Source: Rotaria socialis
Lineage: Eukaryota
DNA: 64,000 nt
Direction of reading: 5' to 3'
NCBI GenBank assembly: GCA_905331295.1
Contig: CAJNYD010000044.1
Span: forward strand, 124,001 to 188,000
Part shown: piece by piece, positions 7,158-57,334 of the stretch
How the letters are laid out: each line of letters starts with the position of its first letter
Position numbering within the stretch: position 1 is the stretch's first letter
The notes under the pieces: model-generated
Databases searched by the model: none
Seen by the model: the letters and a program-made list of their open reading frames with translations, nothing else
Told to the model about the DNA's origin: nothing
Position numbers and translations under genes: made by a program

Positions 7158-9287
7158 TCAAAAGGCACTTTTCACATGTTGAGCTTCGATAATAACTTTA
7201 ACTGGTCGAGCATTTGATAACTGTTTTCCCGCAGACTGACTTCTGTTTAAAGCAAAAGAAATATATTTATTTTTATGTCATTAATAAAAATTAATCATAC
7301 GTACTCCAGTACACGTCTCGATGATAAAATCATTAATGGATTTGTTTGACTCATTATTTCATCATTAACTGAAATACCATCAAGATATTGTTTTAATAAC
7401 ATTTTTAATTGCATATTTTCTGATTGTAAAATACTTCGTTCCTTTTCTAAAGTTAATTTATCTAATGATACTTTACTAAATCGTTTCCAAAACATTTCAA
7501 GCGAATCAAATGTATACATATCCTTAGATAATAAAAAAACACACACACACAAAATAATCCATAAGTTGATGAAGAAAATAAAATCATACTTTTGCTAGTT
7601 CTTCAAATGGCGGTTCATAAAATGCTGTTTCAACTTCAGCACGTTCTTCATCAGACAATGTTGATGAATAGAATGGTAGAATTTTTTCTTCTTCAGCTTC
7701 TAATTTTCGACACATTTCAGAGAATATTAAAATAATTTCAGCTGTTTTAACATGTTTTTCAAGTTTTTTTTCAACTGTATCGCATGCTGTAGCAAGTTTA
7801 ATTAAACGTCGACGTAACTCATCTTGCATGTCCAATAATTGAGACTTTAATTGAAGTAAATACTGTTTCATGCTTTCTTTTTCCTAGGAAAAGAAAAAAA
7901 GAAGCGCTAATAAATTTAAAAAATTAAAACTTCTCTGGTATGTAGTCTACTATATTTATCTTCAAGAGTAGCTGCGTAGGAAATAATGTTCAAAAAGTCA
8001 AGCTTTCAGATTCATGATAAAGAGTAATTTCCTCAGTGTTACTAACAGAGAATTCCTGACAAATAAGAGTTAGATAAATTTCTCTTGAATGTTTCTCGCA
8101 CTACTGTTTTAAAGAGTCATACTTCGATATCTTTATTTTAACTATGAATTTAAAATTCTCATTACTTGTTGCCTACAAAATTACATTTTTAATTAAATTT
8201 ACCTGTGCAACTTTATTCATTCTTGCTTGATGATTGGCTTCGAGAGCTGCGATTTGAGATTTAACGCCATTAATTTTTTCCTAGAATATTTCAATCGTTA
8301 GTTTTTTGTAAGATCATATTTTCTGTTCAGTACTTACAGTTATCTTGTTAATATAAATTGTTGCATCACGAATTTCTTTAGAATTTTTTTCATCTTTCAT
8401 TTTATATTCTTGATATTGTGCTTTACTTTCTCTGGTTCGTTCTTTATAATTATTTGTTATGCTTGTCATTTCATTTTGTAATGACGTTGAACGACTTTCA
8501 ACATTCAATTGATATTGTTGTAGATCTTCTCGATACTTGAAAAGAAGAAAACAAAAATAGCCGATGATAGTCAGAGGAGCGTTATTTTGACTAAAATCTA
8601 CAAACTTTATTACGTAGTTCTTCCATATTCTCTTCGAAATTTCGTTCAGCTAATTTTTCTGCATCAAAAAACGTTTTTTCCATATTATAGATAATATCCT
8701 GCAATTCAGTTTTTGAGATATCATGATCACGAATAATTCTCGCACGTTCTTCACGAAATTCATATTTTATCTGTTCAACATCTTTTTCATATTGTTCAAG
8801 TAGTTTTTCAATGGTTGATGTGTGCATTGCTATGTATGAAATTGAAGGGAAAAAAGCATTTCCATCAAATTTTCACTTACTAATCATTTTTTCAATAGCT
8901 TCAAAAAAACTTCGTAATGACATATTATATTGTTCTTCCGCTTCTTCAATATCTTTCGATGATGCTTTAATGACGGTATCTTTTCGATCAATAATACGTC
9001 CGAATGTTTGTGATAAAATTTCAATTTCTTTTTTTAATTCTTTTGATTTTGCTGCTCTCATTACCATCAGCCATTGCGTATTTAATTTAAATGTATTATT
9101 TTGCGTAAATTTTTCTTCACGTGTTAATTTTTCCTTTAAAAAATTTATGTTTGGAAAGAATTTATATTATTTTATTAGATAAACCTACTCGTAGAAAATT
9201 ATCCATAACAGCTTCTTTGACTTTATTTTGCACCTCTTCTTCGAGGGCCTTTTGCGTAGCAAGAAGATCTTGTTCTGATGTTTCCAT
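7158..9287 (-). CDS. CCDC65: Dynein regulatory complex subunit 2 (CCDC65/DRC2)
   Basis: METSEQDLLATQKALEEE..FLR|EKLTREEKFTQNNTFKLNTQWLMVMRAAKSKELKKEIEILSQTFGRIIDRKDTVIK..DIEEAEEQY, then EMCRKLEAEEEKILPFY, FWKRFSKV.LDKL and LKQYLDGISV match DRC2 hallmark motifs. Stop TGA at 7158-7160. Confidence 0.93.
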
Positions 9288-9360
9288 TTTGTTTTTCTTT
9301 TTTCCTTATCTATAAAATAAAATGGTTAAAATAATAAATATAAAGAATTGATTTATTTAG

Positions 9361-9388
9361 AAATAAAATAAAATAAAATAAAATAAAA
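9361..9388. repeat. (AAAAT)n tandem repeat; U-rich tract on the minus-strand transcript
   Basis: aaataaaataaaataaaataaaataaaa lies in the CFAP68-CCDC65 spacer. Confidence 0.9.
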
Positions 9389-9411
9389 TTTTGCAAAGCT
9401 GTTCTTCTAAT

Positions 9412-10028
9412 CTATTTAGCTCCGGGATTTATTTCCATACAAGCGATACAACGATTTTTAACTGCTGGATCTTGACGATAGTCGACAGTGAGTGTATATG
9501 GTTCAGGTTTTGGATCAACTGTATATGTACGATCTTTACAATGTAAACAAACTTTTGTTGTTGTTGGCCATGCTGGATCATCAGGTGCCAATGCACGCTG
9601 ACAATTGCGGCAATAGCCAGAACGATATTCAGTTAAATAAGTATTAACTGATGTTTTCATTTGAGGAAAATCGAATTCCGGTTGATGACCCGGGAATGCA
9701 TAAGCACGAGGAACTAAGAGGAAGTTTTCATTTCAATAGTCAATTTATCTTCAATAAAAAGACTCACGTTCAAGGTTACGCACTTCAGGTCGTGGTGGAT
9801 CCCCTCGAATAGTACCATAAGCACATTCATATGTTGTACCAAAATGATGATCATTCTTTAAACAAATCAATGTTAAAATGTACAAGAATGAATGAGATAA
9901 CGAGAATCAACCTGAGAAGGAAGAGGTTTTTGTATTCGTTCGTTTTTTACATCAGCTCGTTCTTCTAGCCAATTATTAATTAATGTATGATTGCTGTAGG
10001 GACGACGAACGGATCGTGCTTGGATCAT
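9412..10028 (-). CDS. CFAP68: CFAP68/C11orf1 (UPF0686) ciliary microtubule inner protein, with Cys-rich C-terminal extension
   Basis: Three exons: MIQARSVRRPYSNHTLIINWLEERADVKNERIQKPLPSQ|NDHHFGTTYECAY..|..AYAFPGHQPEFD.. These match the C11orf1 motifs YSNRTLMGNW..ER, KPLPSQ..HYFETTY and FPGHQPELD. Confidence 0.85.
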
Positions 10029-10104
10029 ATTAAAATTAATGTTATAGAATCGACAAATATGTTAACAAATACAAGATGTCATACATAGAAAAATTTTGTT
10101 TTTC

Positions 10105-10117
10105 GTTACTTAGCAAC
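10105..10117. promoter_or_regulatory. RFX X-box
   Basis: GTTACTTAGCAAC (reverse GTTGCTAAGTAAC) fits GTYRCY-N-RGYAAC and lies about 80 bp upstream of the CFAP68 ATG. Confidence 0.75.
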
Positions 10118-10359
10118 GAACAAAACTTCAACGTTTTATCTAATGAGAAGATTTAGTATTTCTTTGCTTTGGAATATATCTGAAATAAAATCTGACGTTT
10201 CTTATAAATCTTTCAAATTCCATCATACGTTGCCTTTATACTAGCGCCCTCTCTTGGTCAGTAATTCATATATTTTAAAACCTTATTTTATTTCATCGCA
10301 AAAGAAAAGTAGAACAAATTTAATAAATGTCTATAGAAGAGTCAATTAGATAAATAGGC

Positions 10360-11038
10360 TTAAAATTTCTTCAGATAAACGAAGATATTGATCATGAAAA
10401 ATGCATATGGAACATATGACCAAACCAATCTTTCAGTTCCACTAATAGTGCTAACGGTTGGGCATGGTGGACCTGTTGCTGTGGACGTATTCGCTACAGT
10501 GCCATTCGCGTCGAGAATACTAGTTATATTCACATATTCTGTGCAAGGAACTGTTTGATAAACGGTTCTTTCTCCTACAATAAATAAACTTGAGATTTGA
10601 AAGAAAACTGATTAATTGAAAGAAAAAGCATACGAGCAAGAAAACCAAGTTCGACCGCTAGCGCTGCAAGAAGCAACGTAAGAAGAAGTCCTATGAGTAA
10701 ATAAGCCCAACAAGGACATAAACATGAACGACATAATGATGATGCGCATGGTGGACAACAGCATTGACATCGACTTATATTCGTCTATTGGTCAAGCAAT
10801 AAAACAATTTGAGAAACGTTTTAATGAACAATTTTATCTTACACTGAGAAGTTTTGTATTTCGAACACGTTGTTTTATCGGTGGTGTGATTTGAGTTTCA
10901 GTGACATAATGAGTTTCACCAATTAAATTACCTGGTTGAAGACCGATTGAAGCCTAAGTTGAAAAATGCTTTTAGCACAAGACAATTCCCTAGTCATCTT
11001 ACGGCTTGTCGTGTTGTATAAGTCGCGGGAGCAGCCAT
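10360..11038 (-). CDS. Small Cys-rich membrane protein with one TM helix and a hydrophobic C-terminus
   Basis: Four exons: MAAPATYTTRQA|ASIGLQPGNLIGETHYVTETQITPPIKQRVRNTKLLS|TNISRCQCCCPPCASSLCRSCLCPCWAYLLIGLLLTLLLAALAVELGFLA|RERTVYQTVPCTEYVNITSILDANGTVANTSTATGPPCPTVSTISGTERLVWSYVPYAFFMINIFVYLKKF*. Splice phases are consistent. Confidence 0.75.
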
Positions 11039-11487
11039 GATGATTCTTCTTGATTAATTCTTGAAATGATCAGAAATTCGACTTCATTCTTATTTAATGA
11101 AAAGTGAGCATAAAGTATTTATCTTGAAATAGAATCTTTTCGTTGAAATTTTATTTTTTTAGCAGCAAAGAGAGAGAGAGAGAGAGGGGGAGACCGATGA
11201 ATTTCAAGAACAAATGGTTAAAAAAATGTATACTTGAACTTAATATCATTTTTTACCATGCTTTTGTTTTGTACGCAGCAAATTTTTATTATGAAATCAA
11301 TTATTGGTATTGAATATTGATTTATCGATCTTCAATTATTAAAATGCTTTTCTCATGTTATTTCGTTATCTGACCTTAGAAATTAATAATATTCAATGAT
11401 TCCCATTTGATTCAGAAAGTGTTCTGTTTTCTTTTTCAAACTTCAATTTCTATTATTTTTAATCAGGTTACTCATTCAATTTACCAT

Positions 11488-11660
11488 GAACGGTTACCAT
11501 GAACAAAAAGAACAACGAGATCATTTTTTACTTGACTTCTGTATTTAAACAGCAAACTGATATCTTTCTAACGGTTCTGTTCTATTTGAATGCGTAACGG
11601 TTACTTTGTTCGCCGTTAGTTCTTAATTGAAGTGTAACGGTCACGGATCTATATAAAAGG
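11488..11660 (+). promoter_or_regulatory. Promoter with clustered Myb-type YAACGG sites and a TATA box
   Basis: TAACGG at 11569, 11595 and 11635, CCGTTA at 11613, GAACGG at 11488. TATATAAAA at 11650-11658 lies about 50 bp before the ATG. Confidence 0.6.
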
Positions 11661-11708
11661 AATGTGTTCTGTTCAATTTTTTCTCATTATCTATAATCTA
11701 AAACAACA

Positions 11709-12367
11709 ATGTTCCGTCATCAACAATCAGCCAAACCATGTCCAAATATTTGTTCGCCTGTACAAGTAAGTTAGCTGTTTCACTTCGAAGTTCTTGTATG
11801 GAAACGGATTTTAGAAAATACATTCAACGCCAATGCGTCTTTGGATTTCAAACATTCCATATTATTGGTCAACCATTGAACTTGAAAATATATTTTCAGT
11901 AGGTTTATTTTTGATGCTACATTAGTTTTGCTTTAATTGTAATTTTTTTCTCATAATGTATAGACATTTGGTCAAGTCTATGATGTTGAAATACCATTAA
12001 AAAATGGCCAATCAAGAGGCTACGGATTTGTAACATTTGAAAAGTATAAGCATTTGATGAACAATCAAAATAAAGAAAATATGATTTGATCTATATTTCA
12101 GACAAGCTGATGCAATACGAGCTATTCAAGCTATGGATGGACAAACAATTAATGGTCGTAGTATGCAAGTAAGTAGTTGAACGAAACAATACTTAACTAT
12201 TCATTTACTTTCTCAAGGTATATCAAGCACATGTAAAACAAAAATCTTTATTGAAATCTTATTTTGTGATTCAATCACTCGATCGGCCGTTATTTGGTGG
12301 ATGCTATTGCTGTAAATCGAACAAAATAAATCGTATGAATTATGGTCAAGCACATCAATGTCAATGA
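11709..12367 (+). CDS. Single-RRM RNA-binding protein, RBFOX/Fox-1-like
   Basis: Five exons: PMRLWISNIPYYWSTIELENIFS|TFGQVYDVEIPLKNGQSRGYGFVTFEK|QADAIRAIQAMDGQTINGRSMQ|VYQA. RNP1 is RGYGFVTF. The sequence aligns with the Fox RRM (PKRLHVSNIPF..DVEI..KGFGFVTFE). Confidence 0.85.
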
Positions 12368-13989
12368 TGAGACATATTGTTTGTAAATATTTATTAGTTG
12401 TTTTGCTTTTTTTCCTGTCGTTTGTTATTGGTTTATTGTACAGTGAACATAGTCTGTTTTGTTTTTCGATAGTTGTGAAGACGTAAGAAGATTTATCTTA
12501 AAGTTGCTATTGCATGTGAACTAGGATGAAAGTTTGTTTTTATTTATCTCGTTGTTATTGTTGCTATATGGAGAAAAAACTATTGCTTGAAGAAAAATAA
12601 ACAAGATGATTAAGAAGAAGAAGATATTGTAATTCTAGTTTTTGATGAATAAATATTCTTTCGAACACGCATCTGTATGGATATTTAAATCTATCAGTGA
12701 GAAATGACTGTATGAAACCGAGTTTTATTCTTTTCTAGTTTTTAATATGATCGAATAATACTTTTTTAGTATTTACTTCAAACTTGATATTCGAGTAAAT
12801 GTCCTTGAGGATTATTAATGTTGTGATTTTACCAGTCAGTTTTATATAAAATACATAAATGAGTTGTTTAGTGTCGATTTATCTTGTAAACGAGAAAATA
12901 CAATTCAAATATTACAATGGTTAATAATAATCGAACCATATCCAATTTTGTTAAATTGATTCTTGTCGACTTTGGAAACAAATTGAATAGTTCCATTCAT
13001 AATTTTAGATTCCTATTACACAGAGAATGTAGAATTGATGATTAACATTTGAATAAATATGCAACATATCATGTGAACATCTGTCTCATTCAATTTTTCA
13101 CGATCACAAAGTGTATTTCAATGATTTCTTATCGATGAATAACTCCATTATTCTTTTTATATATTTAATGCCCAACGAGTATAGGATTTTTACAGTGAAC
13201 TATACGCATAAATTGTTAAATAGCGCAATGAACTCACTGAAAAAAAGACTTTTGAAATTTAGAAATTGATTAAGACATATAAATATAATCAAATAAAACT
13301 TAATCTACTGGATAAGTACGCCGATATTTTTATCCATAGAACAATTGTATTTAAACCAGAGTAATCATGAGATTTTAGAATTCTTACGTTCTTATTTTTC
13401 TTATCATCTCTGCAGGAAAAAAGTGGATAATATTTACTATACAAGTTTTGTCAGATAATATTCGATAATATCTTATTTTATTTTATAGGATAAATATTGT
13501 ATTTTTGTAATGACAGAATTACATTTGCATTTTTTACTTGCAAATAGCTTTTAGTTTCTATCATGTGCGAACTTTGCAAATCCATTGAAAATTTTGTTAG
13601 TAAACTAATAAAAATCGAATATTTTCATACGAAACGTTTTTTGTTTTATTGTAGAATAATCGAGCTGAGGAGAAATAAATAATTTTACGAACAAAATCGA
13701 ATATTGGTAACTGTTCGACAACATGATAGCTTAGAGTGGCGAAGAGAGAGAATATTGAAATGAGACTTCACTGATATAGATGCACTCTACCAACAGTATC
13801 ATAGACTATTATTCTTCTCTAGAATATAATCAAGTTCAATAAAGTCATGATAGATCATGGAAAACACATACATCTAAATTTCAGAGAATTTCGTATCAAA
13901 AAATAAGAAATTCTGAAATCATTTTAGAAATAAAAGAGTTCTCTTCGTATCATATTGATTTTAAAAAATCTAGTGTATTTTATTTGAAT

Positions 13990-16154
13990 ATGACTGGCAA
14001 ATACACTAAGAGTTCAGTCGATATTTCGAATCCTTCCGAAGAAACAATTGAACTATCAAAAATGATTAATCTAATCGACGAGAATGAGAATATACCACTT
14101 CTTTCCTTGGACGAAGCGATCAATCCACTTCGTGTCGTTGTTCCAGAGCTTGAACAGATGGTTTTGATAGTGAGAAAAGTTAATAATACATCACCAAATA
14201 TTTTTAAAATTGATGAATCACATTCCATCTTATTATGTACGATGAAATCGACGCCCATAGATACATCGTTTCGTGTGATTCTCAACAATATCTTACAAAC
14301 AAGAAATCTAACACTATTGAAACCATGGTTGTATGATATCAAACTATTAATGACAGCTTTAAGTAAACTTACAACGAATTTCTCTCGTATTACTGTTTAT
14401 CGTGCTGTAAAATTGAATTGAATTACACAATATTCTGAAGGGTGAGTATTGATTTGGTGGAACGTTGCATCATGTACAAGTTCTCTTAATATTCTTAACA
14501 ACGGAGATGTTTTCGGTCAGAATGGAGAACGAACATTATTTATTATTGTTAGTAAATCTGGTAAAAGCATTCGCCAACATTCACTTTATCCTAATTAAGA
14601 AGATATATTACTCCCTGCTGCTTGTCAACTTCAAGTAACGGATTCAATTCGACGCTGGTCATGAGCTGCATTTAATTCATTTGAAGGGAATTCGATCAAC
14701 ACAAAAAACACGTAATAGTTTCGCCAGAAAAATATAAACTTCAGATGATCGATCTTTCACAGCGATCATCTATATCTTCGTCATTCCAAAACACTGGCAA
14801 AGCCCATTCATCAAGCAGACTGATCATTAGAAAAACCATTTAACAGTCATCAATTGACTCTACGATGCCGAAACATATTAGTCAATTGCTGAAACGTACC
14901 GATCCCAAGGTTAAAAAGTGTATTGAAAGCTTATATACGAATCCGGTAATTCTTTTTGATATACGTAGTATATCCTAACAATTTTGATTAACAAAAAGAC
15001 CTATATATGATTCCTGTAGAATTCATATCATCAGTCTATAAATGATATCATTAGTTTTGTTTTGATATAGACATTGGTCACTCTAGAGATTACATGGAAT
15101 GAAATTGGTGATGATGAAGCCAAAGCGATTGCCTATTCAATTCAACAAAATAAAGTGATGTCAAACCTGTTATCTCTTCTTTATTTTTCATTTTTTGTGC
15201 ATGTAATTTAGATGATTACTACATTAGATCTTCAACATAATCTGATTGGACCCCAAGGAGCACAACATCTCGCTAAAGTTTTACAAAAAGAAAACATGAT
15301 AAATCTATTTATTTTTTTGTTTACGTTAGTATTTGCGGATTATGCTAGATATTGACGGCAATCAATCTCGAAAATAATCATATTGGAGATGAAGGAGCAC
15401 AATATTTTGCTAACGCTTTACGGCTAAATAAAGTAACTTGATTATTGCTTCACCTCTTTTCCACATTATATTATCATTTGTTTATTTATTATATTAGAAG
15501 TTAACCTAACTAAATCTTCGTACGAATCAAATTAGATCACAAGGAATTCAACATCTTTTCATGGCATTAGAACAAAATCAAGTAATGTTACTTCCGCTAG
15601 TTCTATGATTTCGCTGATGTGTCACATATTTCAGACGCTCACTAAACGTTACCTTCGATCCAATCCGATCGATAACTTAGGAGCCAGTTATCTAGCAAAT
15701 GTTCTACAAAAAAATCAAGTGATCTAACGTTTTATATCGCTTCTTTGTTATTATTTTATTTACTCATTATCCTAGACTCTCACAGCACTAAGCCTCGCCA
15801 ATAATCGAATAACAACAAAGAGAGCTCAACACTTTGTCAATGCTCTACAGATAAACAAAGTAACGATTTTTTTTTCTGACGTACATGTCTTCCCGGGTTC
15901 ATTGTTCTAGACTCTCACAACACTTGATCTTCAGAGCAATGAAATTGGACCTATTGAAGGACAATATCTTGCTAATGCTCTGGAAGCAAACAAAGTAACC
16001 GAAATTCTTCTTCTACTTCTATCATTCCATTCGTCATTGGCTATTTTAGATGCTCAAAATTCTAAATTTAAAAAATAACCAAATCGGTATTGAAGCAACA
16101 CGACGCATCACAGAGAGCATACAACATAATTTTACTCTGCATACCATCATATAA
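13990..16154 (+). pseudogene. ADP-ribosyltransferase (R-S-E type) fused to 8 RI/NLRC3-type LRR exons; disabled
   Basis: ART motifs TVYRAV, WWNVASCTS, RTLFII..GKSIRQHS.YP..EDILL. In-frame stops at 14419, 14443, 14596 and 15507. Frameshift near 14650. Donor GT changed to AT at 15296. LRR exons read like TLTTLDLQSNEIGPIEGQYLANALEANK. Confidence 0.85.
15071..16154 (+). repeat. Tandem array of 84-nt phase-0 LRR exons
   Basis: Seven 84-nt exons (e.g. 15071-15154, 15212-15295) plus a terminal exon. Each encodes one 28-aa LxxLxLxxNxIG repeat and they are separated by short introns. Confidence 0.9.
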
Positions 16155-16753
16155 ACAATCTCTATCGAACGAGTACTAAATAAAAGAACAGCACTCCTGA
16201 AAGAATGAATTTTGTAAAACAAATGATTCACAATGCTTATTTTGCTATCAAAGATGAATCTCATAATCACATGAAAAGTTTTCTATCTATAAATGATCAC
16301 TTGCATTTCGTTTTATTAAACAATTGAAAAATATTTCCATTGAAAATATCCATTACTATTCTTGATTTTAAATTCGTCTCTATAAATCAAGTTTACCATG
16401 GTGAAACAAAAACATTTATTCTAAAAAATTAAAGAAAAAAACGATATCCATAAAAACAAAACAAAAAGGAAACCATAAGCGTTTGTCAAGGCCAACATAA
16501 ATTAAGATTTTTGAGCTATATTAAAAGTAAAACAGGAAATGCAACAGCAACACGAAAATACTTGCTTGTGGATATTGAAAACAATGAGAAAAAGAAAGAT
16601 TTGAAAAAAATTAACATGAATGGAATGTACGACTAAATAGGATTAAGCGAATACATTTTCCTGATGTTAGATCGATCTAACCGAAATATTTATTTCTATT
16701 AGCTACTAAATTTCTACTTTTTTTCATATTGAATTAGTAATGTAAGTAATTTG

Positions 16754-21312: not shown

Positions 21313-21948
21313 TTATTTTCTTTTTACTTCTACAAGTGTTGTTTTTATATCAAGAATTTTGTCAACAACATCACATTCAATTATTTCAAGTAGAACAGGT
21401 TGTCCTAATTTGAATACAAAATTATGATAAACAGGTGGTATTGTATCACGATGAAATGATGCATTGAAACGACTGTGAATTAGACAAGCTAAAAAATACT
21501 CAATAGAAAATCTTTTTTTTTGTCAAAATGAAGAAACCTTTACCTATATGTTTCTTTCCAAGTTTTGATACAATCGCGCGAACGCGTCTCCCACGCTCAG
21601 GTACAAATAACACAAAACTAAGTTTCACAGGCACCCATAATGTTGGTTCATCTTGAAATGTTTGTCCGACATTGGACAATAGATGAATCTTACCAATGGC
21701 CAGTAGAAAACCATTTAATCTTGAAAATAATTAAATTGTAATAAAAAAAAAATTTTTACATAATATTTAAAAACGTACTTTTTTGTTATTTCATTTGAAC
21801 TTTCTTCAAGTATTCGTTTAATACTTGATTTTACTTTTCCTATTTGACTTGGTGGTACTGGCACAAGAACTTTTTCACATTTATGTTCTAAACATGATTC
21901 TTTATCATTAATAAGCGGAAGAATGTCACTAATTTTACATAAATTCAT
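21313..21948 (-). CDS. POLR1F: RNA polymerase I subunit RPA43
   Basis: Three exons: LINDKESCL..VPPSQIGKVKSSIKRIL..|LNGFLLAIGKIHLL..DEPTLWVPVKLSFVLFVPERGRRVRAIVSKLGKKHI|ACLIHSRFNASF, matching RPA43 (FVIFCP..G....G.V.K....HIGCLVHGCFNASI). Confidence 0.85.
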
Positions 21949-22071
21949 TTCGTAGATTTTATCTATAAAAGAAACTTCAATAAGAATATTTTATTTTTTC
22001 AGCAAAGTTTCAGAAGAGAAAAGACGATGAAATTTATTTAACAATAGAAATTCTCGTTTATTTATTTTTCT

Positions 22072-22347
22072 TTAATGTGTTGTTACACGTTGAAAACCAA
22101 TGAGTTTATCCGGATCTTGATAAAGCCAGGCATCGGCTGATAATGATTGAATATTTTCGCGTATTTTTTGTAAATGTTGAGTATGTAATTCTTTTTCTGT
22201 TTCTGAGCGATAAAATTGTGTTGCATTTTCTAATTCAATGGTATTTAATATCATCGCATTATTATTCGTTGTAGTCGTTGTTGCCATTGTTGGCTCGACC
22301 GTAGGAACATGTGGAGATTGAAATAATGCTTTGCGACTGGCATCCAT
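22072..22347 (-). CDS. ANAPC16: Anaphase-promoting complex subunit 16
   Basis: MDASRKALFQ...HTQHLQKIRENIQSLSADAWLYQDPDKLIGF matches APC16 RKALF and LEADEWRFKPIEQLLGF. The ATG directly follows a tttttcAG acceptor. Confidence 0.8.
   Translation of the reverse strand: MDASRKALFQSPHVPTVEPTMATTTTTNNNAMILNTIELENATQFYRSETEKELHTQHLQKIRENIQSLSADAWLYQDPDKLIGFQRVTTH

Positions 22348-44863: not shown

Positions 44864-44865
<2 letters not shown>

Positions 44866-44897
<32 letters not shown>
44866..44897. repeat. (TA)n microsatellite
   Basis: About 16 TA units. Confidence 0.95.
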
Positions 44898-44900
<3 letters not shown>

Positions 44901-46004
44901 CGCTATATATGATGATTACTAACCTGAGTATTTTCTTCTACGTATATACATATTTAATAATGGCAAATAATAGAGTACGAGCTTATTTATTTAATTATTC
45001 GAAGGAAGAAGAAGAAAAATATATGTAAATGGTGTCAATACTAATATTCCTATAAGCAAATATATATATAAATCAATCTATGAGTAGGATGATGTCGTCA
45101 CTTACAGTATCGAAAAATATATATTTGTCATGTTTTGTTTTTCTCTCTGGTACTATTCCCACGTTTCACACACGATTAACACATAGGTGGGATCAAGTAT
45201 ATAACTGAATGGGAATTACATAAACGCCCAGAATATCTCATGAAAATGCGAAATATAGAACATCTAAAAATAGCAACAAGTGTCTGCTCAGATAACTTTG
45301 AGGATAAACAATGTATATATGTTTATGTAAATAACATTGATTTAAAGATAATCGAATGTCTATCCGATTGCGTTACAAGCATATATAAAAAGAAAAATGT
45401 GCTAACATGAAATTTAATCTGGTCTTCTGAAGATAGATATGTGACTGACAGACAGCAGATGAGGAAAAAATAGAGCTCGGCGTCCGACATTGAAAACGAA
45501 CATGTCACTGATCAATTTGTCTATGTTATTTGATCTTTATAGTATATATGTATATGTTATCTATGTCTGATTTTTAAGTTGAAAAAAGTAGACATAAAAT
45601 TTATTTTGTTTCTCTAATACATCGTAATGCCATTTTTATACAAAGAAACAATAACAACAACAACACTGAAAGTGAATCTATGACAACAGTTATTATATAA
45701 GAAACTTTCATTGAGAAATTATTTATGCATGTATGAATTTAGTTTGTTCGACTGGAAAAAGTGCAAGTAGAGCCACAACGTTCTGACTGTTTTTTTTTCA
45801 TTAGTAAATTAATTCACGGAGAATAGAGAAAGCATAACAACCTGTCATGAATGGATTCATTTATGATATTTAAATGCTAATTTCATATGAAGCATAAAAA
45901 AGAAGACTACCTTTTTTCTCCATTAGAAGATTAGATTGAGAAATTATGAATCAATTACAGTTATTTGATTTTTTATTTACAGAATAGACAAGAAATACAA
46001 GTAA

Positions 46005-47342: not shown

Positions 47343-49685
47343 TATTTACAATCTACAAATAAAGAAAACAAAAGTATTTCTTCATTTTTCAAACGAAGAG
47401 ATAACATAGAAACAATGTTGTTTTTTTGTTCATGTTCTTCAATTTTATTATTTGTTCTTTTTTTATTATTTATTTTAGGACATTCATGTTTCTTTAAATA
47501 TCAGTATTAGTTTATTTTAAAACATAGTAGGATTCCTTTCTGATAATACATTTCAATCATATTTATAACAAGGACAATATAAAATAATAGAATTGTCTTA
47601 ATAATAAATATTGAAGTCGTAGATATTTTGATTGAATCGAAAAATTCAAGGATATCGTTCTTTCTTCTTCTTTGTACATAACAATATAATTAAAAATTGA
47701 AAGACTAAAATTAATATGTCACTTGACCTAAAAATCAATCGAATTTTTTCATATTTTACATTGAAATTATTTCATTAAACTAATCTTACTAGTTTTATAT
47801 AACAAAGAAATAAAGGTAGTCATAAGAGTCATTCAATAGACGAGTTAAAGTAATTCACACTGAAACGTACGGATACGATGCTTGATAAGGGTAACGATGT
47901 AAATATGTTTTTCTATAGAATACAATGGTTCTAATAATAGCTTTTTGTTATTCAATCGTTTCTAGATTATTTTCAAGTCGTTAATAACACAATAGATTGA
48001 TGACGATAAGATTCACTACACGTTATTTTTCACGTGTGATTGCTGAGTGTGTTAATTACGATTCTACAGTAAAAGCAAACCATGAGATTGCTCATATAAA
48101 ACTTAGACAAGAATATAAAATGCGCAAAATGCAAACTTAAAGCAGAAACCTTTTTTCTTTTCGATTTAAATGTATGTTAAGATAAAGTGTGGCAAACTCA
48201 TTAACAATATGTGCATTGTGAATTTTTTTTCAATCATGTTTTAAACTGAAAATTGAAGTGCTTTTAGATGACTTAATTTTATTTAAAAGCAGGTCAACAA
48301 TTGTTAACTGATAAGGCTTTTTTAATTTTCTTATATGTGAATAACGTCAAACTGTTCGCATTTTTTGGATTAAACGTAAAAATAACATGATTCTAATTCG
48401 ATCATCTTGTCAATCAGTTTTTTGGATTTTGTTTCGAACATAAACGCAAATACGACAATTGAAATTTAAATATTCTTCATCAATTTGTAACGCTCTATCT
48501 AATAATAAATGACAAGATAAAACTAAATTTTGTTTTTACATTTACCGGCATCTTAAAAAAATTTTTTTTCCTATTCTCTTGAAATTATTGAGATCGAATC
48601 GACTGAGAAATTCAGCAACTCTGATGGTATCTAAGATATTGAATAGCCATACTAAATTGATTCTCTGACAAACTCAAAGGATAATAAATTCTATTGATTA
48701 CACGGAAGTGCACCATTCAAAGAAAAACAATTGCAAGAGTATACAAAAAACTTTCCTATTCAAAAGAAGTTTTGCGGAAACTGAATCATTGAGTAACTAC
48801 AAAAAAAAGAAAGAAACAATAGAGAAATACTTTCGTAAGATTTTGTTTTTCATTTGAATTCACATGCGCAAGAACAATTTCAACACTAATATTTTCTCAT
48901 AATATGTGATAACTATTGAATAAAACTTTTCATCATTCGTAGACTCATTAGAAAGATTCGTAGAAACAAGCACGCTCTCAAGATAATTTCATAGTTATTC
49001 CAAGAAAATCGAGTTTTGTTATTTTTTACATGTCGATCAGACAAAAGTAATCCGAAGGTAATTTTTTCACTGAAGTCGTACTAAAAGGGTTACACGTCAT
49101 TGTCTCGTATAAATTGATAATATTCATTTTGTTTTTCAAAAGAAAATATCATATTTCTAATTTTATGAAAAATGCTCTTTCCCGATTAAGAAAAAAAAAG
49201 AATCCATATCAATTACTTTTTCGTATCACATATCCTTGAATGTTGATCACGCATTGTATATAATCATCCATATTTTCGTCTAGGATAACAAGAAAATAAA
49301 CATCGAATAAACATAATACAATTGAAAAAAATAAACCAACCTTCTTTTTTACCCGATGGCAAGCGACTCTTTAAACAAAAAAGAAAGATTAAATTCGAAT
49401 ATCACTTGTTTATATTTGCAATACGAATAGAAGTTTCTGCTACATATGTTGAGTGAGATTTCTTTCCACGAAAAAAAACCAATGAAAGTTTTACAGTTGT
49501 TTTTTTCCAATATACATGATCCATAGACAAACAAAAACATACAGACATTAAAAAAAACTGTTTGTACATGCAATGGAGATGACTACATATGGTGTTTTTT
49601 CTTATCTAATATGAAACTCATCGGTGAACAAAAACGATGAAATTCTGGAAGAAAAATAAAAATGGATAATTTATTTGCATTTTTT

Positions 49686-51520
49686 TTATCGTCTCATAGG
49701 TCGTTTAGATGGAATTGGTCCATCGTCATCATCATATCTTGAACCGGAACGTTTTAGAATTGGACGATCTCGATGAGATGAACGATTGCCATGATCTCGA
49801 GGATTTCGAAATGAACTTTCTTGAGGATCCATCAATGATGAATAATTCGTACGTGACGAGGACGATGATGTAGTTCCATAATCTCTTGGCTGGGACATTG
49901 GACGATAGTTAAAATCTTGTACATATTGTTCACGTGGAATGTACGATGATGATGAAGATGGTGATGACATCGAAACATTTGATGAACTTCTATACAAGTC
50001 ATTGCGATAACTAGACGATGATACAGGCACCATTGGATAATCACGTGATGATGTATTATTTCGATTTGCTACAAAGTAAAGGATTCATTTTTTTTTCTTT
50101 TTGATTGTTGACAAAGTTTTAAGAAAATATGTATGTACAACTTTCGAATATTTTTCTGAGATCTACATATTAGAGAGGTGATATTTTGCTGGTTTCTCTT
50201 TCAAATTATGATTAGTTTTATATTTTGAATAATTATTTTGTTGTTACGATTGAATACAATTGAATTGAAATACGGCCATGATAGATTTTCTCTGATCCAT
50301 GTACATAGAATATCAATCATTATAAATAAAGATATGAGTACGCATGTCTGAGGAATTAATCATTATGATAATGAATGATTTATATCTGCTTGTTGAATAT
50401 GATCAAACGGAGGGAAAAGAAACAGGATATTGTTTTGTTATGTTTAGTTAAATTAACCGAAACCTTAATGAATTGTATACAAATGAAATAGGAACAAACG
50501 ATCATTTTTCAATGAGCGATAAAAGGAGAAAGGAACATGATGATCGTGTTAACAGCAGTGGATTAATTGAAAAACAATTGGCCTACATTATTACTTACAT
50601 GGTATATCGTACCGGTCAGAACGTGGAGGATAATCATTTGCTCGATACATTTCACCATATGGATCGTCACGCATGGATAGAGGAGCTAAAGATGGAGGCG
50701 TGGCAGATCTGCATTCATTACTCATGTATATATCATTATTGATATTTCGAGATCCATAATCCATTGATCGTTCATTTCGATAGGATGCTACAGGTGGTGG
50801 AGGACTATTTCGTCTGAAAATATTTTGTAAATGATGAAAATATTTAATTAGAATCTAGAAAAACAAAACTTACCGATAATTTGTTGGTATATATCGACTA
50901 CGGTCTGAATCAATATGTTGCGATGACAACGGTACTGATGATGATCCACGATCACGTAGACGTGGCGACATTGACTGAGAAGAAGCATAGTATAGAGATG
51001 TTGGAGGTAATGAAACATTGGAAAGAACCAGGTGTTCATTTGCGGATGATCGATATGTATCACAATGATTTGATGGTCGATCAAATCTTGATGGAGGTGA
51101 ATGGTTATCATAATAATTTGTTTGAACATTGTTTGCTCGATTAGATGATGAAGAAGAGGAAGAAAAATGCGATGGGGCTTGAAAATCATCATCTTGCTGA
51201 TAACGATTATGTTTCGGTAGACCATTTCGTGATGAAATAGGCCGAGAATTAACTGAACTACGTGACGTACGATAATTAAAATTTTCATTTTCTGAGCCTC
51301 GTGATGAAAAATTACCATTATGATCATTTTCACTACCACGCGAAAATCGTCCACTGAAACAAAAAAAATTTCTTTTAATTGTATAGATTGAAAAAATATA
51401 ATGTTTTTTTTACCGAGAATTTCTGCTTGTCGATCGTTCAGTATAATTATTCCGATTCGTAGAAAAGTTATTATGTCGATCACGATATCGACCACGATAA
51501 CCGTCACGTGAACTCTCCAT
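49686..51520 (-). CDS. Arg/Asp/Ser/Tyr-rich low-complexity protein (hnRNP G/RBMX tail-like)
   Basis: Four exons join in frame: MESSRDGYRGRYRDRHNN..|..YPSANEHLVLSN..|RNSPPPPVASYRNERSMDY..|SNRNNTSSRDYP..PRDY..GPIPSKRPMRR*. No folded domain recognised. Confidence 0.75.
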
Positions 51521-53160
51521 ATCTATATCTATATATATATATATATATATGACTAGTATAAATAACAAACCGATCACGAAATACGACAAATAATCAGTAT
51601 ACGAGTGTATATATTCTAATGAATGTCTGGAACAAATGTATATGAGAAACAAGACCTTTCACTCTTCTCTTTCTATTATATTGAACGGGAGCGGAAAAGA
51701 AAACACATGGACAAAAGTATCGAACAAAATACAGATACAATGATCATTGTTTTTTTCCTCTTTATGTTGATTTTATACGAAACAGACAAATGGATCATAT
51801 CAGTGCAGAGAGAGAAAGCATTGATCTCATCGAACGTATTCAGGCTATCCTCTTAGGAACTACATAGTAAATGTTTTATTCTATGATTCATTTATATTGA
51901 CCAACGGCAAAAATACTTTCGAATCAAAATATACAGTTAAGATCAATTCACAATAGAACCATTTTGTTAAATATTTTTGATACATTATTAAACGATAGGA
52001 TCTGCTATCGATTGTATTATCGAATTTAGAAAATTGCATTTAAGATTTTGTATTTTATAAGGTTCTCTATTCACTAATTAACATTAATAGAAAAAAGGTT
52101 AGAACTCTGATATTGCGTACTTAGTGAGGGAATTCATCGAATCAACCATGAAATGACTTATTAGCTAATGTTATTCAAGAATATAATGAGGTTCTACTTT
52201 GAATCTCATGAACAATTTATAATATATACTCGAAATATGGTTAAGTGATATTCCAGCAAACAATATTTTGTAAATAATTGATTATGTAAACCATAATTCT
52301 CTATAGACCTTTATGTAGTAGATCTAGATTCTTATTTCATTAGAAATAACATGTCAAACTGTAGCGCCCGTTTTCTTTTTAATCAATTTACACTTTTTGT
52401 CCTAATGAAAAGACTAAGGAGTACACACTACAATGAACAATAATCAAAACGTTCTTCTCTCTGTTCTTCTGTTATAATAGCCAAGAGGCATAATTACAAA
52501 AAAATCAGACATTATGGTTCAACATATTTTCCACATCCACACCCAAAAAAAGTCATTCGATATAATGAAGGGCGATCGGGAATACCGACGCTTGTGTTCA
52601 GAAAAATCATTTCGGACTATTCTTCTGATCAGAAAACCAGGTATCGGGAGGCTTGAAAAGGCAATGCAATAGGTGTTTTATTTGTATATAATTTCGATTC
52701 GAAAGCATTTTATTCATTTCCTTTTTATAATAATATGAACATAGACAGATGAGTTAATTCTATAAAAAGCAACCACTAACATATTTCCTTCTAAATGTGC
52801 GGGTCGATGAATTCAGTCCCGGAAATTATAAAACTAAAGAATCAAATACTTGTCTCTGTCAATCTTCACAGGAAAAAGTTAGACATCTTTGATTGCCGTT
52901 TTTAAGATTCAAATGAGAGAGAGAGAAAAAAAATAAAACAAAATAAAACAAAACAAAACAGATGAGTGTGTTTTCTACACACGCCTTGCTCGAAGTTTTT
53001 TTTTAATGCTAATATATTTTTTTCTCAGTAAAAGGACAAGAAATACACGATAGATTAGATAGTGAACCAAAGAAAAAAAGGACAAAAAAAAAAGAAAATG
53101 ACATTCTGTTTTAATTAGTTGTTCGCATTTCAAAGTGAAAATAGAATGAACAAAAGACGT

Positions 53161-53197
53161 ACACACACGCGCACACACACACACACACACACACACA
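53161..53197. repeat. (CA)n microsatellite in the presumed striatin 3' UTR
   Basis: acacacacgcgcacacacacacacacacacacacaca. Confidence 0.9.
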
Positions 53198-53431
53198 TGT
53201 TGATGTTTTTATGTACACCAAAAAAAAAAACGAGGAAAAAAAGAATAAATTTGCATGTAAAGAAATTTGTGTTTTTTATAAAAACAGAATTCGTGTGACA
53301 AAATTACAGATGATGGTTTTTGTTTTATATCTGGTACACCAAGGAGACAGAAAAGAAATGATAAAGATGACAACACAAAACTAGAGACTCTGCATGCTAA
53401 AAAGAAGAAGAGACATCAAGATTTTTATTAT

Positions 53432-55806
53432 TTAAGCATAAATTTTCGCTATTGAATCTGCTCCAACACTAGCCATATAGGGTTTGGATAAATGAAATGC
53501 AACGTCATGTATAGACTCGTCATCCTTCTTTTGATGAGCTGTGAATTCTTGTATACAATTTTTCGTTTCGAAATTCCATAAACGTATTGAACGGTCATGA
53601 CCTTAAAAAAAAAAGAACAAGTTGTCTTTTGTATATCAAATAGATAATCGTTTTTTTTCTTTCTTACTGCCAGATAGCAGACATGTCTGTTGTGGATCGA
53701 TTGCTAATGCAGTAACAGTTTCTAGATGAGCTACCATTGAATGTATCATTCGTCCTGTAAAGAAGAAAACCCCATCATTTAGACAATGTCAAAAAACTAA
53801 ATAAATTATAGGTTCTTGATTACCAGAATTACTATCGAAATATCGTATCTTTTTATCATCGTGTGCAGTTATGATAATTGGTTGCGATGGATGGCTTATT
53901 ACTCTATTTACTCGATAATTTGCATCTGCTGTTGAATTATCGTTAGCTAATTGCGTTACAACTTTTCCAGTTTCTGCGTCGAAAATCATTGTTTTCAATG
54001 AATCATACGTGGCAACAAATTGATTTGTATCTTGCATTATCCAATCGATAGACAATGGAATGCCATCGTCTATTAAAATTATTTTTAGAAAACCATTGCT
54101 TCATTGATGAAAATAACTCACTAGTAAATGTTGATTGTAATGATTGACTCAAATTTGAATCCCATAATCGTACAGATCCATCCGATGAACATGATAATAA
54201 TTTTTGACCGGATATTGCTAATTGCCAAACAGCATCTGTATGACCCTCCAAGACTTTGCATAGAACATTTGAATCTTAAAAACGAAAAACAAAATTAATT
54301 ATTCATATAGAAACTTTTTTAAATTATGAATTCACCATAGGCATCATAAGGATCAACATCTGAATTCGGAATATTCCATACAGATATAATTGAATCAAGA
54401 CCACCACTATAAAACTGTTCTCCGGACGGATTCATTGCCACGCACAAGACAGGACCTCTATATCAATTTAAATTAATTCGATTAGCTCACGTCATTTTTC
54501 ATTTATTAAGCTTACGTATGCCGCCGGAAAGTATAGATGGGTTCGAGATCTTGTGTTGTCGATGCTGATCTAAATTAGAAAGAATAGATTTGACATTTCA
54601 GGGAAATTTTCTTCTTACTTTCTTAGAACAGCAGCTTTTTCAAGATTCCATAATTTAAGTGTACGATCTTCAGATCCAGTTATAACAACTGATTCAACTG
54701 GATGAAATGTAACGCAATGTATACCATCCAAATGGCTAAATAAAATATTTTTAATTTGGTTTCAAATTATAGAAATTATAGAAAAAAAATCAAAATACCT
54801 TCGTAAGACGTATTTAACATTCCATGTCTTTCGAAAATCAGATGAATCTGTTGCTGTTGTCTAATAGAGGAAAAGAAATGATAGAATGAATTGTCAGCAA
54901 AAGAAAAGATCAAGTCATACATCATCTTGTGGTTCATTATCATTCAAAACTGTAACACGTGCTAATTCATCAAGACCATCCATAGCATTATCGCCCATGA
55001 AATTTTTACTATTTCGAAACATGATTGTGTCAACCATGCCACGATTAACTATTAAACCGAAAAATATGAAAGTTCATCTCATGTTTTTTTTTCTTCTAAT
55101 AAGTAATGAACAAACTTTGTTCATCTGTTGAAAATGCTCGCGGATCAGAAGATGTATCGTCATTTCCATTATCGAATAAATTATTTCGAATCGATGATGA
55201 ATTACTTGTATGATGTTGATGTTGTTTACCGTAACGTTCACGTTTATATTCTTCTTTCAATCGATTTAATCGAGATTGATCAACATCCCAATCAGCACTA
55301 TTATTTTCTAATGAAAACAATAAAAATATATTAGATGCGTAAAATTATATTATTATTTATTTACCATTGGGTTTCATTTGATTTACATTTGAAGAAGCAG
55401 CTGATTCGCCAGAAAGAAAATCGAATTCATGTAGAGCTACTTCTTCACCGTCGAGATCATTAAGTGTGTCAAGACCTGAATTATGATTCGTTGTATTACC
55501 ATTATTCGATTTAATCATGATGCGGCTAGAATCAATATCATCATCACTAGGAAAAACAAAACAAATATTTTTCTTTCGTATTTCATGATTGAATAAATTT
55601 ACCTTGAATCTTCATCAGGCTGATCTTCTTTGAGAAAGACAAGTGATGCGAGAACTGATTTACTTAAATCGCTTGTGGCATTTTTAACAATATTTGGAAT
55701 GATTCTTTTAGTAAAGGAGAATATTTTGTAAATTAATAAATTCGCCTAGATTTTTCTTTTTACCTTTTTGATTCGTTTGACGGTTTAATGTCACCATTTA
55801 AACTGA

Positions 55807-55839
<33 letters not shown>

Positions 55840-56703
55840 TTGCATTGAAATTCGTTTCACTTTTAATTCCAAGTAGTTTCTTAACAGCTGTCGAACGTAT
55901 ATCAATTATTGTATCAACATAACCAATTTCTTTCAAATATCTAATAAGAGGAAAAAAGAGAAAGCCATTTTGTTTTGGAATTGAATTTACTAAATAACAT
56001 ACTGCCGAAGTAATTGACGGCCTTGTTTAAATGATACGCTATTATCACCATAACCTAAATTTGCACCATCTTTATTTTCATCTAAAACAAAATCAATTAA
56101 ATTCAACAAAATTTCTAAAACAAAAAATTTTACCATCATCATAATGTGGTGCATCATTCGATGTTGATTTATGATCTTCTACTGGAGCGTTTTCACTTCC
56201 ATATTTTAGTTTATTGAATTTTAATCTAAATAATTAAAATTACATGAGACAATGTGTATGTTTTTTCTCTCATGAGGCGAATATATATCCTTTGAGAATT
56301 ATCAAACAGAAAAAGAGTCGTCATTATTCTTAATTATTTTTCTTTTAGAATTTTTTACCTTTCTTGTTTTAATGCATATTCAAGCATTTTAATGCGTCTA
56401 ACAAGTGCATTCTTTAGATTTTCTTGTCCTTGTCGTTCACCTTGTAGAAAAGCAATACGTGCCTATAAAAAAAGCAAAATGAAAAATATGCGTTTCCAAG
56501 TGTAGATTTTATTTTACTTGAAATTCAGCTCGTTCCGTTTCCCACTGTTGTCGTTCTATTTCAAATCTAGTCCATTCGTGTTGAAGAAAATGAAGGATAC
56601 CAGGCACTGTATATAATGGACGTTGGGCATCGACATTGGCCATTGCCGATGCTGCTGCTTGAGAATCTGTCTGATAGGATATTTGCGTTTCACTACCGTC
56701 CAT
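53432..56703 (-). CDS. STRN: Striatin (STRIPAK scaffold, WD40 C-terminus)
   Basis: YTVPGILHFLQHEWTRFEIERQQWETERAEFQ|ARIAFLQGERQGQENLK..LVRRIKMLEYALKQER, GRQLLRQYLKEIGY, RKTWNVKYVLRSHLDG, GHTDAVW, ..ASVGADSIAKIYA*. Confidence 0.97.
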
Positions 56704-56802
56704 TCGATTTCATATCGATGTAGGAAAAAAAACGAAAAAAGGAAAAAAATAAATCTGAAATAATAAAAATGATAAACAATATTTAGCTTTACAACAATTT
56801 AT

Positions 56803-57334
56803 TTAACATTGAAAACTTCGATAGGTTTGAATTTCATCAACAATTTTCTGACATTCATCATCATCTAGTTTACTATCTAAAGATGGAATTAATGTTTTAG
56901 CTTCCACGGCTTGTTGTGGACAAAGATTAGCAAGTAATGCAGCTTCAAATTTATGTAAACCCGACGATGGATTTGTTGATCCCATGCCATTAGGTTGATC
57001 TTTTGGAAAAAGTAAATTTCGAACAGCACCGATGGCTTCTTTTGTTTTAAATTTACTGAATCGTTCACAATAAGCAACTGTATCATTAAATGCTTCTGAT
57101 GATGTTATTTCATCATCGTCATCATCAAGACCATTCGCATTGGAATTTTGCTGTCGACGTTGCTCAAGCATAAGTAATACTTCTGATATCATCATTGGTT
57201 CAGCTTTATCGAATTCTTTTGGAAATTTAAGTTGTGCAGCATCTTCATCATCCTAGTTAATTAAAAGAATGACATGAAACATAGGATCTTTCTTTTTAAT
57301 GAGCTGATAGACATACTTGATTTGCAAGTGCCAT
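56803..57334 (-). CDS. POLR2D: RNA polymerase II subunit RPB4
   Basis: Two exons: MALANQ|DDEDAAQLKFPKEFDKAEPMMISEVLLMLEQR..RFSKFK..LHKFEAALLANLCP...EAKTLIPSL..IQTYRSFQC*. Confidence 0.96.

What the first reader, a model, noticed from the sequence alone, without database searches (positions are those of the whole stretch)
7158..57334. Recurrent spacer grammar suggests a genome-wide operon system
Three junctions (124, 123 and 99 bp), plus a possible fourth, share one layout: stop codon, poly(A) signal and U-rich tract, AG, short UTR, ATG. Other intergenic distances in the window are hundreds to thousands of bp. Up to 7 of about 16 intact genes would be operonic. I am not aware of a systematic description of operons in rotifers, but I cannot check the literature.
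Basis: inference. Interest (0 to 1): 0.8.

Follow-up and report, generated by a model that had tools for sequence, protein, structure and literature searches.

The report
Operons in a bdelloid rotifer
Three pairs of genes in this bdelloid rotifer sit head-to-tail only 99-124 bases apart, and for one pair the short gap is kept in other bdelloids and one intron-free assembled sequence carries both genes, so these pairs are likely operons, transcribed together and probably cut apart by the rotifer's spliced-leader system, which I found described in no rotifer paper.

Summary
The three spacers are real: CFAP68-DRC2 124 bp, APC16-RPA43 123 bp, RPB4-striatin 99 bp. The other 8 tandem gaps are 331-3604 bp. 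The organism is a bdelloid, Rotaria socialis or very close. Each spacer has AATAAA and a strong acceptor AG with no good donor at intron distance.

That motif 'grammar' is weak evidence: 3 of 11 control post-stop regions share it.

The strong evidence is for RPB4-striatin. All 7 related loci that reach past the RPB4 stop (5 distinct sequences) keep a 70-108 nt spacer and the AG, while neighbouring gaps vary 2-10-fold. One contig (L007) lacks all 17 introns yet holds both full ORFs and the spacer, although a 95%-identical relative keeps the RPB4 intron. It is mRNA-like evidence of transcription across the junction.

Best reading: dicistronic operons resolved by the bdelloid 23-nt SL, with a predicted intercistronic piece of about 0-30 nt (Oikopleura/Ciona-like). 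This scan noted a similar candidate in Adineta steineri before, without RNA evidence.

The parts
7158..9287 (-). DRC2/CCDC65-like gene (482 aa, 7 introns), downstream gene of junction J1
   Evidence: model; Pfam NYD-SP28 E 3e-22 and NYD-SP28_assoc E 9e-7
9288..9411 (-). J1 spacer, 124 bp: AATAAA 9357-9352, acceptor AG 9311-9310, 22 nt to ATG; no GT dinucleotide in the spacer before the AG
9412..10028 (-). CFAP68-like gene (168 aa, 2 introns), upstream gene of J1
   Evidence: model; Pfam CFAP68 E 6e-6
21313..21948 (-). RPA43/POLR1F-like gene (173 aa, 2 introns), downstream gene of J2
   Evidence: model; exon 2 matches human RPA43 E 9e-4; homologues hit RPA43_OB and SHS2 below curated cut-off
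21949..22071 (-). J2 spacer, 123 bp: four AATAAA (22066, 22062, 22038, 21995), acceptor AG 21964-21963, 14 nt to ATG
22072..22347 (-). APC16/ANAPC16-like single-exon gene (91 aa), upstream gene of J2
   Evidence: indirect: 5 of its 8 representative hits match Pfam ANAPC16, 2 above cut-off; direct PDB match to APC16 only E 1.1
53432..56703 (-). Striatin gene (750 aa, 16 introns), downstream gene of J3
   Evidence: spliced alignment to P0064; Pfam Striatin E 5e-12
56704..56802 (-). J3 spacer, 99 bp: AATAAA overlapping the RPB4 stop (56803-56798), acceptor AG 56756-56755, 51-nt U-rich stretch, out-of-frame upstream ATG at 56713
   Evidence: conserved in 7 of 7 related loci that reach it
56803..57334 (-). 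RPB4/POLR2D gene (155 aa, 1 intron), upstream gene of J3
   Evidence: Pfam RNA_pol_Rpb4 E 2e-26; exon 2 100% identical to R. socialis P0001
57335..57500 (-). Conserved non-coding block upstream of RPB4, likely 5' UTR and promoter of the pair; no conserved AG next to the RPB4 ATG
   Evidence: 72-81% identity to related loci over 150 nt vs 55-56% shuffled; L007 begins inside it; promoter role inferred

Best explanation
These are three tightly spaced head-to-tail gene pairs that likely form dicistronic operons, each probably transcribed from the upstream gene's promoter and resolved into two mRNAs by 3'-end cleavage near the AAUAAA and trans-splicing of the single 23-nt bdelloid spliced leader onto the spacer AG. 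Shown: the spacing, the motifs, the absence of a good cis-donor at intron distance, conservation of the RPB4-striatin spacer and AG, and an intron-free contig holding both ORFs. Inferred: a single promoter, use of the AATAAA, SL addition at the AG, and the same status for J1 and J2. The hexamer lies 24-43 nt before the AG (nearest hexamer in J2), so with cleavage 10-30 nt after the hexamer (textbook value, recalled) the discarded intercistronic piece would be about 0-30 nt, and the two processing events would compete or be coupled.
For: (1) 7 of 10 metagenome loci reach past the RPB4 stop; all 7 (5 distinct sequences, RPB4 72-88% identical) have striatin's ATG 70-108 nt later, all 7 keep a YAG|AT acceptor 29-37 nt after the stop, and 6 keep AATAAA on the stop. 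(2) In L005 this gap is 99 as in the window, while striatin-RS-rich is 926 vs 1911 and RS-rich-KIAA1143 223 vs 2343. (3) Spacer identity to the window is 0.69-0.89 vs 0.62-0.75 for flanking introns (modest margin). (4) L007 (3452 nt) has RPB4 (156 aa), a 108-nt spacer and striatin (762 aa) with none of the 17 introns. P0012, 95% identical to its RPB4, reads through a 20-residue insert at the intron site, so that lineage has the intron and L007 is mRNA-like. Its spacer AG is retained, so it was not used as a cis-acceptor in that RNA. (5) No GT 41-80 nt upstream of the AGs scores above 2.9, against a 5th percentile of 3.0 for true donors. (6) A strong acceptor within 100 nt of the ATG in 3 of 3 downstream genes vs 1 of 10 others (P 0.014, threshold chosen afterwards). 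(7) Adjacent in A. vaga (tags 030179/030178) and by accession numbers in 24 of 24 cases in six other species. (8) Bdelloids have an SL on over 50% of transcripts (PMC1925144, passage).
Against: No SL sequence in the window or the 10 loci, and no SL-derived peptide in 204 proteins, so trans-splicing at these AGs is not observed. L007 is one assembled contig from another bdelloid: overlapping UTRs or read-through from two promoters could be merged by an assembler, and its spacer lacks AATAAA and has only moderate acceptor scores (4.6, 3.3). The motif layout occurs in 3 of 11 control regions. Gene order is conserved across the whole region (A. vaga RPA43 030170 to RPB4 030179), so order alone says nothing about operons. 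Fused gene models also occur across the 867-bp SSR4-APC16 gap (P0179). Distance statistics on 11 gaps are borderline (P 0.07-0.08). Donors scoring 5.3-5.7 exist 98-243 nt upstream of the J1 and J3 AGs inside the upstream coding region. A second striatin copy is apparently expressed or retained without an RPB4 neighbour.
Confidence: 0.68

Rival explanations
1. Independent monocistronic genes packed closely: the downstream gene has its own promoter inside the upstream gene's last exon or the spacer, may be SL trans-spliced at the AG like half of all bdelloid genes, and L007 is an assembly merge of overlapping UTRs or read-through.
For: Motif layout is common in control regions (3 of 11). KIAA1143 has a stronger unpaired AG (10.5) after a 2343-bp gap. 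Whole-region synteny explains order. A divergent pair shares only 334 bp, so promoters can be compact. The RS-rich-KIAA1143 gap changes from 223 to 2343 bp between species.
Against: The J3 gap stays 70-108 nt in 5 distinct relatives while neighbours vary 2-10-fold. The conserved non-coding block sits only upstream of RPB4 and has no clear match elsewhere in the window (best other hit E 0.097). An outron with branch point upstream of the AG would put the start site at or inside the upstream gene's 3' end, so the transcripts would overlap anyway.
Confidence: 0.2
2. A stable dicistronic mRNA that is not resolved by trans-splicing, the second ORF being translated by reinitiation or leaky scanning, as reported for green algae and some Drosophila loci.
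For: L007 is fully spliced yet holds both ORFs, has no AATAAA in its spacer and no SL. An upstream ATG close to the striatin start is conserved in all 7 loci and the window, which points to translational control.
Against: A conserved unpaired acceptor and AATAAA in 6 of 7 loci are hard to explain without processing in the spacer. Bdelloids have an SL system. Unresolved spliced dicistronic cDNAs also occur at SL-resolved operons in Ciona (PMC1488885, passages).
Confidence: 0.09
3. Chance: three short gaps in the tail of a broad distribution, with motifs produced by AT-richness, and no shared mechanism across the three junctions.
For: P 0.07-0.08 for 3 of 11 gaps at or below 125 bp; J1's acceptor score is reached by 57% of shuffles.
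Against: J3 conservation and L007 are not explained by chance; the three values lie within 99-124 bp with nothing until 331 (post hoc P 0.004).
Confidence: 0.03

Closest known systems
Oikopleura dioica and Ciona intestinalis SL-resolved operons (PMC1488885 and PMC7986045, passages read)
   Same: Mostly two-gene units of unrelated housekeeping genes, one SL used for both monocistronic and downstream genes, very short intercistronic DNA (23-30 nt in Oikopleura, none in Ciona), unresolved dicistronic cDNAs as evidence.
   Different: Different phylum and a different SL. Here a canonical AATAAA lies 24-43 nt before the AG in most spacers. Poly(A) sites and SL junctions are not mapped here.
Caenorhabditis elegans operons, SL2-type and SL1-type (as described in PMC1488885, PMC7986045, PMC12582326, passages)
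   Same: AAUAAA, U-rich sequence and a trans-splice acceptor between co-oriented genes. SL1-type operons have AATAAA close to the acceptor, as here.
   Different: The ~100 nt in SL2-type operons is poly(A) site to acceptor; here ~100 bp is stop to ATG. No second SL is reported for bdelloids in what I read (one 23-nt SL in PMC3795323 Table 1).
Chaetognath (Paraspadella gotoi) operons (PMC12460157, passages)
   Same: Nearest relative with mapped operons (Gnathifera): 18% of genes, called by gaps under 250 bp plus SL reads, no operon-specific SL, enriched for housekeeping functions.
   Different: Three SLs. That paper names rotifers among lineages with 'trans-splicing and operonic transcription' but the passages I read give no rotifer operon data. 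Brachionus ESTs showed no SL (PMC1925144), which suggests separate origins or loss.
Unresolved polycistronic mRNAs of green algae and Drosophila (PMC7896298, PMC11291117, PMC4528330; search listing only)
   Same: Two ORFs on one spliced RNA with a short spacer, as in L007.
   Different: No SL step; would not need the conserved acceptor.

Membership tests
SL-resolved eukaryotic operon | Co-oriented, closely spaced genes | tested here: met
   99-124 bp vs 331-3604 bp for the other 8 tandem gaps
SL-resolved eukaryotic operon | Lineage has SL trans-splicing | not tested
   From literature only: PMC1925144 passage (23-nt SL on over 50% of transcripts in two bdelloid species) and PMC3795323 Table 1; no SL gene in the window
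SL-resolved eukaryotic operon | Unpaired 3' splice acceptor ahead of the downstream ATG | tested here: met
   Scores 8.4-9.6, no donor above 2.9 at 41-80 nt; conserved at J3 in 7 of 7 loci. Not specific to operons
SL-resolved eukaryotic operon | Poly(A) signal of the upstream gene before the acceptor | tested here: inconclusive
   AATAAA present in 3 of 3 spacers and 6 of 7 relatives, absent in L007; use not shown; striatin has AATAAA at +3 although its conserved 3' UTR runs about 500 nt
SL-resolved eukaryotic operon | One transcript spans both cistrons | tested here: inconclusive
   L007 is an intron-free contig with both ORFs, for J3 only, in another bdelloid; a contig cannot prove single molecules
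SL-resolved eukaryotic operon | Downstream mRNA carries the SL at the acceptor | not testable with these tools
SL-resolved eukaryotic operon | No separate promoter for the downstream gene | not testable with these tools
   Needs CAGE/ATAC; the conserved upstream block occurs only before RPB4
SL-resolved eukaryotic operon | Genome-wide short-distance mode for tandem genes | not testable with these tools
   No genome held; 11 gaps only
C. elegans SL2-type operon | About 100 nt between poly(A) site and acceptor | tested here: not met
   At J1 and J3 the hexamer-to-AG distance is 24-43 nt, too short for a 100-nt intercistronic region; J2's most distant hexamer is 98 nt away
C. elegans SL2-type operon | Dedicated second SL for downstream genes | not testable with these tools
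   Only one rotifer SL is listed in PMC3795323 Table 1

The most novel reading that the evidence does not exclude
Bdelloid rotifers have an undescribed genome-wide operon system, old enough to predate the split of Rotaria, Adineta and Didymodactylos, in which a poly(A) signal (sometimes fused to the stop codon) sits only 24-43 nt before a trans-splice acceptor and one SL resolves the transcript. It would be absent from SL-less monogononts. It would offer a way for new or horizontally acquired genes to be expressed without a promoter, and the duplicated genome would give natural tests of operon break-up (one striatin copy kept RPB4, the other lost it).
Probability: 0.5. Interest if true: 0.72.

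Novelty: new member of a known kind. Interest (0 to 1): 0.6.

Why it matters
SL trans-splicing has been known in bdelloids since 2005, but nine literature searches found no description of rotifer operons, and the A. vaga chromosome-level genome paper never mentions them. If real, bdelloids join nematodes, tunicates, flatworms and chaetognaths, and the bdelloid/monogonont contrast becomes a close-range test of whether operons follow the gain of an SL. It would affect annotation (fused gene models), knockdown and CRISPR design in A. vaga, and ideas on how promoter-less foreign genes become expressed in an animal rich in horizontal transfer. The test is cheap: existing RNA-seq and assemblies run through an SL/operon caller.

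Tried and rejected
No whole genome is held, so the genome-wide distance plot was not done. No sequencing reads were obtained, so SL junctions and poly(A) sites were not mapped. The 23-nt SL was not found in the window or loci L001-L010 at up to 4 mismatches, and SL-derived peptides were not found in 204 proteins. Rfam found nothing in the window. Rejected as evidence: the motif grammar alone (3 of 11 controls); conserved gene order alone (whole region syntenic); fused gene models (also across an 867-bp gap); in-frame spacers at J2 and J3 (stop codons intervene at J2; relatives' J3 spacers of 70 and 86 nt are out of frame). Rejected: that L007 comes from an intron-less lineage (P0012 keeps the intron), and that its 21-residue insert is a retained intron (Thr/Ser-rich coding repeat). 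Fourth junction: TM-CFAP68 (331 bp) has no strong AG near the ATG; the SSR4-APC16 AG has a possible donor 168 nt upstream (4.5); RPA43-LRP's nearer AG has a good donor (7.6 at 76 nt); RS-rich-KIAA1143 has an unpaired AG and nearby AATAAA but a 2343-bp gap. Pouchkina-Stantcheva and Tunnacliffe 2005 is not held.
Full report
Organism and genes. The window is 30% G+C with short introns (46-78 nt for 53 short introns, median 57). RPB4 exon 2 and striatin exon 1 are 100% identical to proteins named Rotaria socialis, so it is a bdelloid rotifer. No whole genome is held. I modelled 13 complete genes; an RRM gene, an LRR gene and a partial USP bring the count to about 16. The three pairs are CFAP68 then DRC2/CCDC65 (both ciliary by family name), APC16-like then RPA43-like, and RPB4 then striatin. 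The APC16 name is indirect: 5 of its 8 representative hits match Pfam ANAPC16, while the rotifer proteins themselves do not.

The observation. The spacers are 124, 123 and 99 bp, with AATAAA, a strong AG and a 22-, 14- or 51-nt stretch to the ATG. The other 8 tandem gaps are 331-3604 bp; a degraded gene near 30-31 kb was left out, and adding its gap changes P to 0.03-0.09. Three of 11 at or below 125 bp is borderline (P 0.07-0.08); the tight cluster is rarer (P 0.004) but that test is post hoc. The acceptors score 8.4-9.6, above 98% of 3589 intergenic AGs, and 3 of 3 downstream genes have one within 100 nt of the ATG against 1 of 10 other genes (P 0.014, threshold post hoc). No donor at normal intron distance pairs with them; weaker-placed donors lie 98-243 nt upstream in coding sequence at J1 and J3.

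The 125 nt after the stop of 11 genes with no close neighbour contain an AG scoring 8 or more in 5 cases and the full AATAAA-then-AG layout in 3 (striatin, SDF2, RS-rich). J1's AG score is matched by 57% of shuffles of its own sequence. The grammar is therefore common in U-rich 3' regions here. Also, over half of bdelloid transcripts are reported to carry the SL (PMC1925144, passages), so an unpaired AG does not mark an operon.

Conservation of RPB4-striatin. One scan of metagenome contigs confirmed 10 loci among 129 candidates. Three end inside RPB4. The other 7 (5 distinct sequences, as L004-L006 are near-identical) all have the striatin ATG 70-108 nt after the RPB4 stop and a YAG|AT acceptor 29-37 nt after it; 6 keep AATAAA on the stop. 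Acceptor scores in relatives are 4.6-8.2, and no donor above 2.9 lies 41-80 nt upstream. In the 20-kb locus L005 this gap is 99 bp as in the window, while striatin-RS-rich is 926 vs 1911 bp and RS-rich-KIAA1143 223 vs 2343 bp, and a GPCR gene upstream of RPB4 is present there but absent from the window. Spacer identity (0.69-0.89) exceeds that of neighbouring introns (0.62-0.75) by a modest margin. A 150-nt block upstream of RPB4 is 72-81% conserved and lacks a conserved AG next to the ATG, as expected of the promoter end of the unit (inference).

Gene order. A. vaga tags are consecutive (030179, 030178). In six other species, 24 of 24 listed RPB4 accession numbers have a striatin number within 2-20, which I read as adjacency (inference from the numbering stride). 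A. steineri and Rotaria sp. Silwood2 could not be scored because the matching striatin copy was not looked up. For J2, 4 of 4 listed A. steineri APC16 numbers lie 18-20 from RPA43 numbers and one model fuses the two. But A. vaga RPA43 is tag 030170, so the whole region is syntenic and order alone is not evidence; a fused model also spans the 867-bp SSR4-APC16 gap. J1 was not examined outside the window.

Transcript-like evidence. L007 (3452 nt) holds an unbroken RPB4 ORF (79-549), a 108-nt spacer and an unbroken striatin ORF (658-2946), with 78 nt before and about 500 nt after. None of the 17 intron positions carries an insert; its one 21-residue insert is a Thr/Ser-rich coding repeat. P0012 is 95% identical to its RPB4 and has a 20-residue insert at the intron site, so the lineage has the intron and L007 derives from spliced RNA (or a retrocopy of one). 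Its striatin groups with the RPB4-linked copies (91/87 support, long branch). The spacer AG is retained, so it was not used in cis. Limits: one contig, another species, no AATAAA in its spacer, and an assembler can merge overlapping transcripts. In Ciona, unresolved dicistronic cDNAs were one of three lines of proof for SL-resolved operons (PMC1488885, passages).

Mechanism. Most likely Pol II starts upstream of gene 1 and reads through both genes. The gene 1 mRNA is ended near the AAUAAA, and the SL is spliced onto the AG, giving gene 2 a capped 5' end and a 14-78-nt genomic UTR. The hexamer ends 42 (J1), 27-98 (J2), 43 (J3) and 24-32 nt (relatives) before the end of the AG. With cleavage 10-30 nt after the hexamer (recalled textbook value) the intercistronic piece is about 0-30 nt. 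This resembles Oikopleura (23-30 nt), Ciona (none) and SL1-type C. elegans operons more than SL2-type ones (about 100 nt; PMC1488885, PMC7986045, PMC12582326, passages). Single promoter, poly(A) site use and SL addition are inferred, not shown: no reads were available, and the SL was not found in the loci or fetched proteins. Rivals: independent compact genes (0.2), an unresolved dicistronic mRNA (0.09), chance (0.03).

Literature. Nine searches listed no paper describing rotifer operons. The A. vaga chromosome paper has no occurrence of operon, trans-splicing or polycistron in its main text (PMC8494291, term search). The chaetognath genome paper reports operons for 18% of genes and names rotifers among lineages with patchy 'trans-splicing and operonic transcription', without rotifer data in the passages read (PMC12460157). 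Brachionus ESTs showed no SL (PMC1925144). The SL sequence came from PMC3795323 Table 1. The 2005 primary paper is not held; subscription papers and supplements were not seen and could hold an earlier mention. The scan's own note e1-2593265 proposed a three-gene operon in A. steineri without RNA data; I did not test it.

Verdict. A real feature and a likely new member of a known kind. One junction has good comparative and transcript-like support, one has adjacency support, one rests on the window alone. The genome-wide claim is open at about even odds. Interest 0.6.

Noticed in passing
window 56713-56711 (-); L001, L002, L004-L008: An upstream ATG 10 nt before the striatin start (13 nt in L007), out of frame and overlapping it, is conserved in all 7 related loci; it may limit striatin translation by leaky scanning.
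   Followed up: partly
window 49685-47343 (-); L005 15775-15998: The RS-rich to KIAA1143 gap is 2343 bp in the window but about 223 bp in L005; both have AATAAA shortly before an unpaired AG near the KIAA1143 ATG. Possibly an operon junction behind a long 3' UTR, or one that has expanded.
   Followed up: partly
window 59860-57335; L003 2880-3923; L005 about 8400-9404: A single-exon rhodopsin-family GPCR gene lies upstream of RPB4 in L003, L005 and an A. steineri fused model (P0056), but no remnant was found in the window.
   Followed up: partly
proteins P0075-P0083, P0141: A second striatin clade has no RPB4 hit beside it; in A. vaga it is on another chromosome, while in R. socialis accession numbers put it about 14-22 genes from the first copy on the same contig.
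   Followed up: no
window 57335-57500 (-): Strongly conserved 150-200-nt non-coding block upstream of RPB4, with a repeated TTGTTTA-type motif also at the 5' end of L007.
   Followed up: partly
window 53431-52940 and 59860-59100 (-): The 3' UTRs of striatin and the USP gene stay alignable with relatives for about 500 and 770 nt; striatin has AATAAA just after its stop that is apparently not the main end.
   Followed up: no
window 23980 (-) and 24315 (+): SSR4 (TRAP-delta) and an SDF2-like MIR-domain gene, both ER proteins by family, are divergent with only 334 bp between start codons: candidate bidirectional promoter.
   Followed up: no
window 13990-16050 (+) and 31200-30100 (-): An LRR gene that looks partly degenerate, and a degraded gene remnant with no Pfam match; neither was modelled.
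   Followed up: no
window 1267-1366: Assembly gap of 100 N, outside the finding.
   Followed up: no
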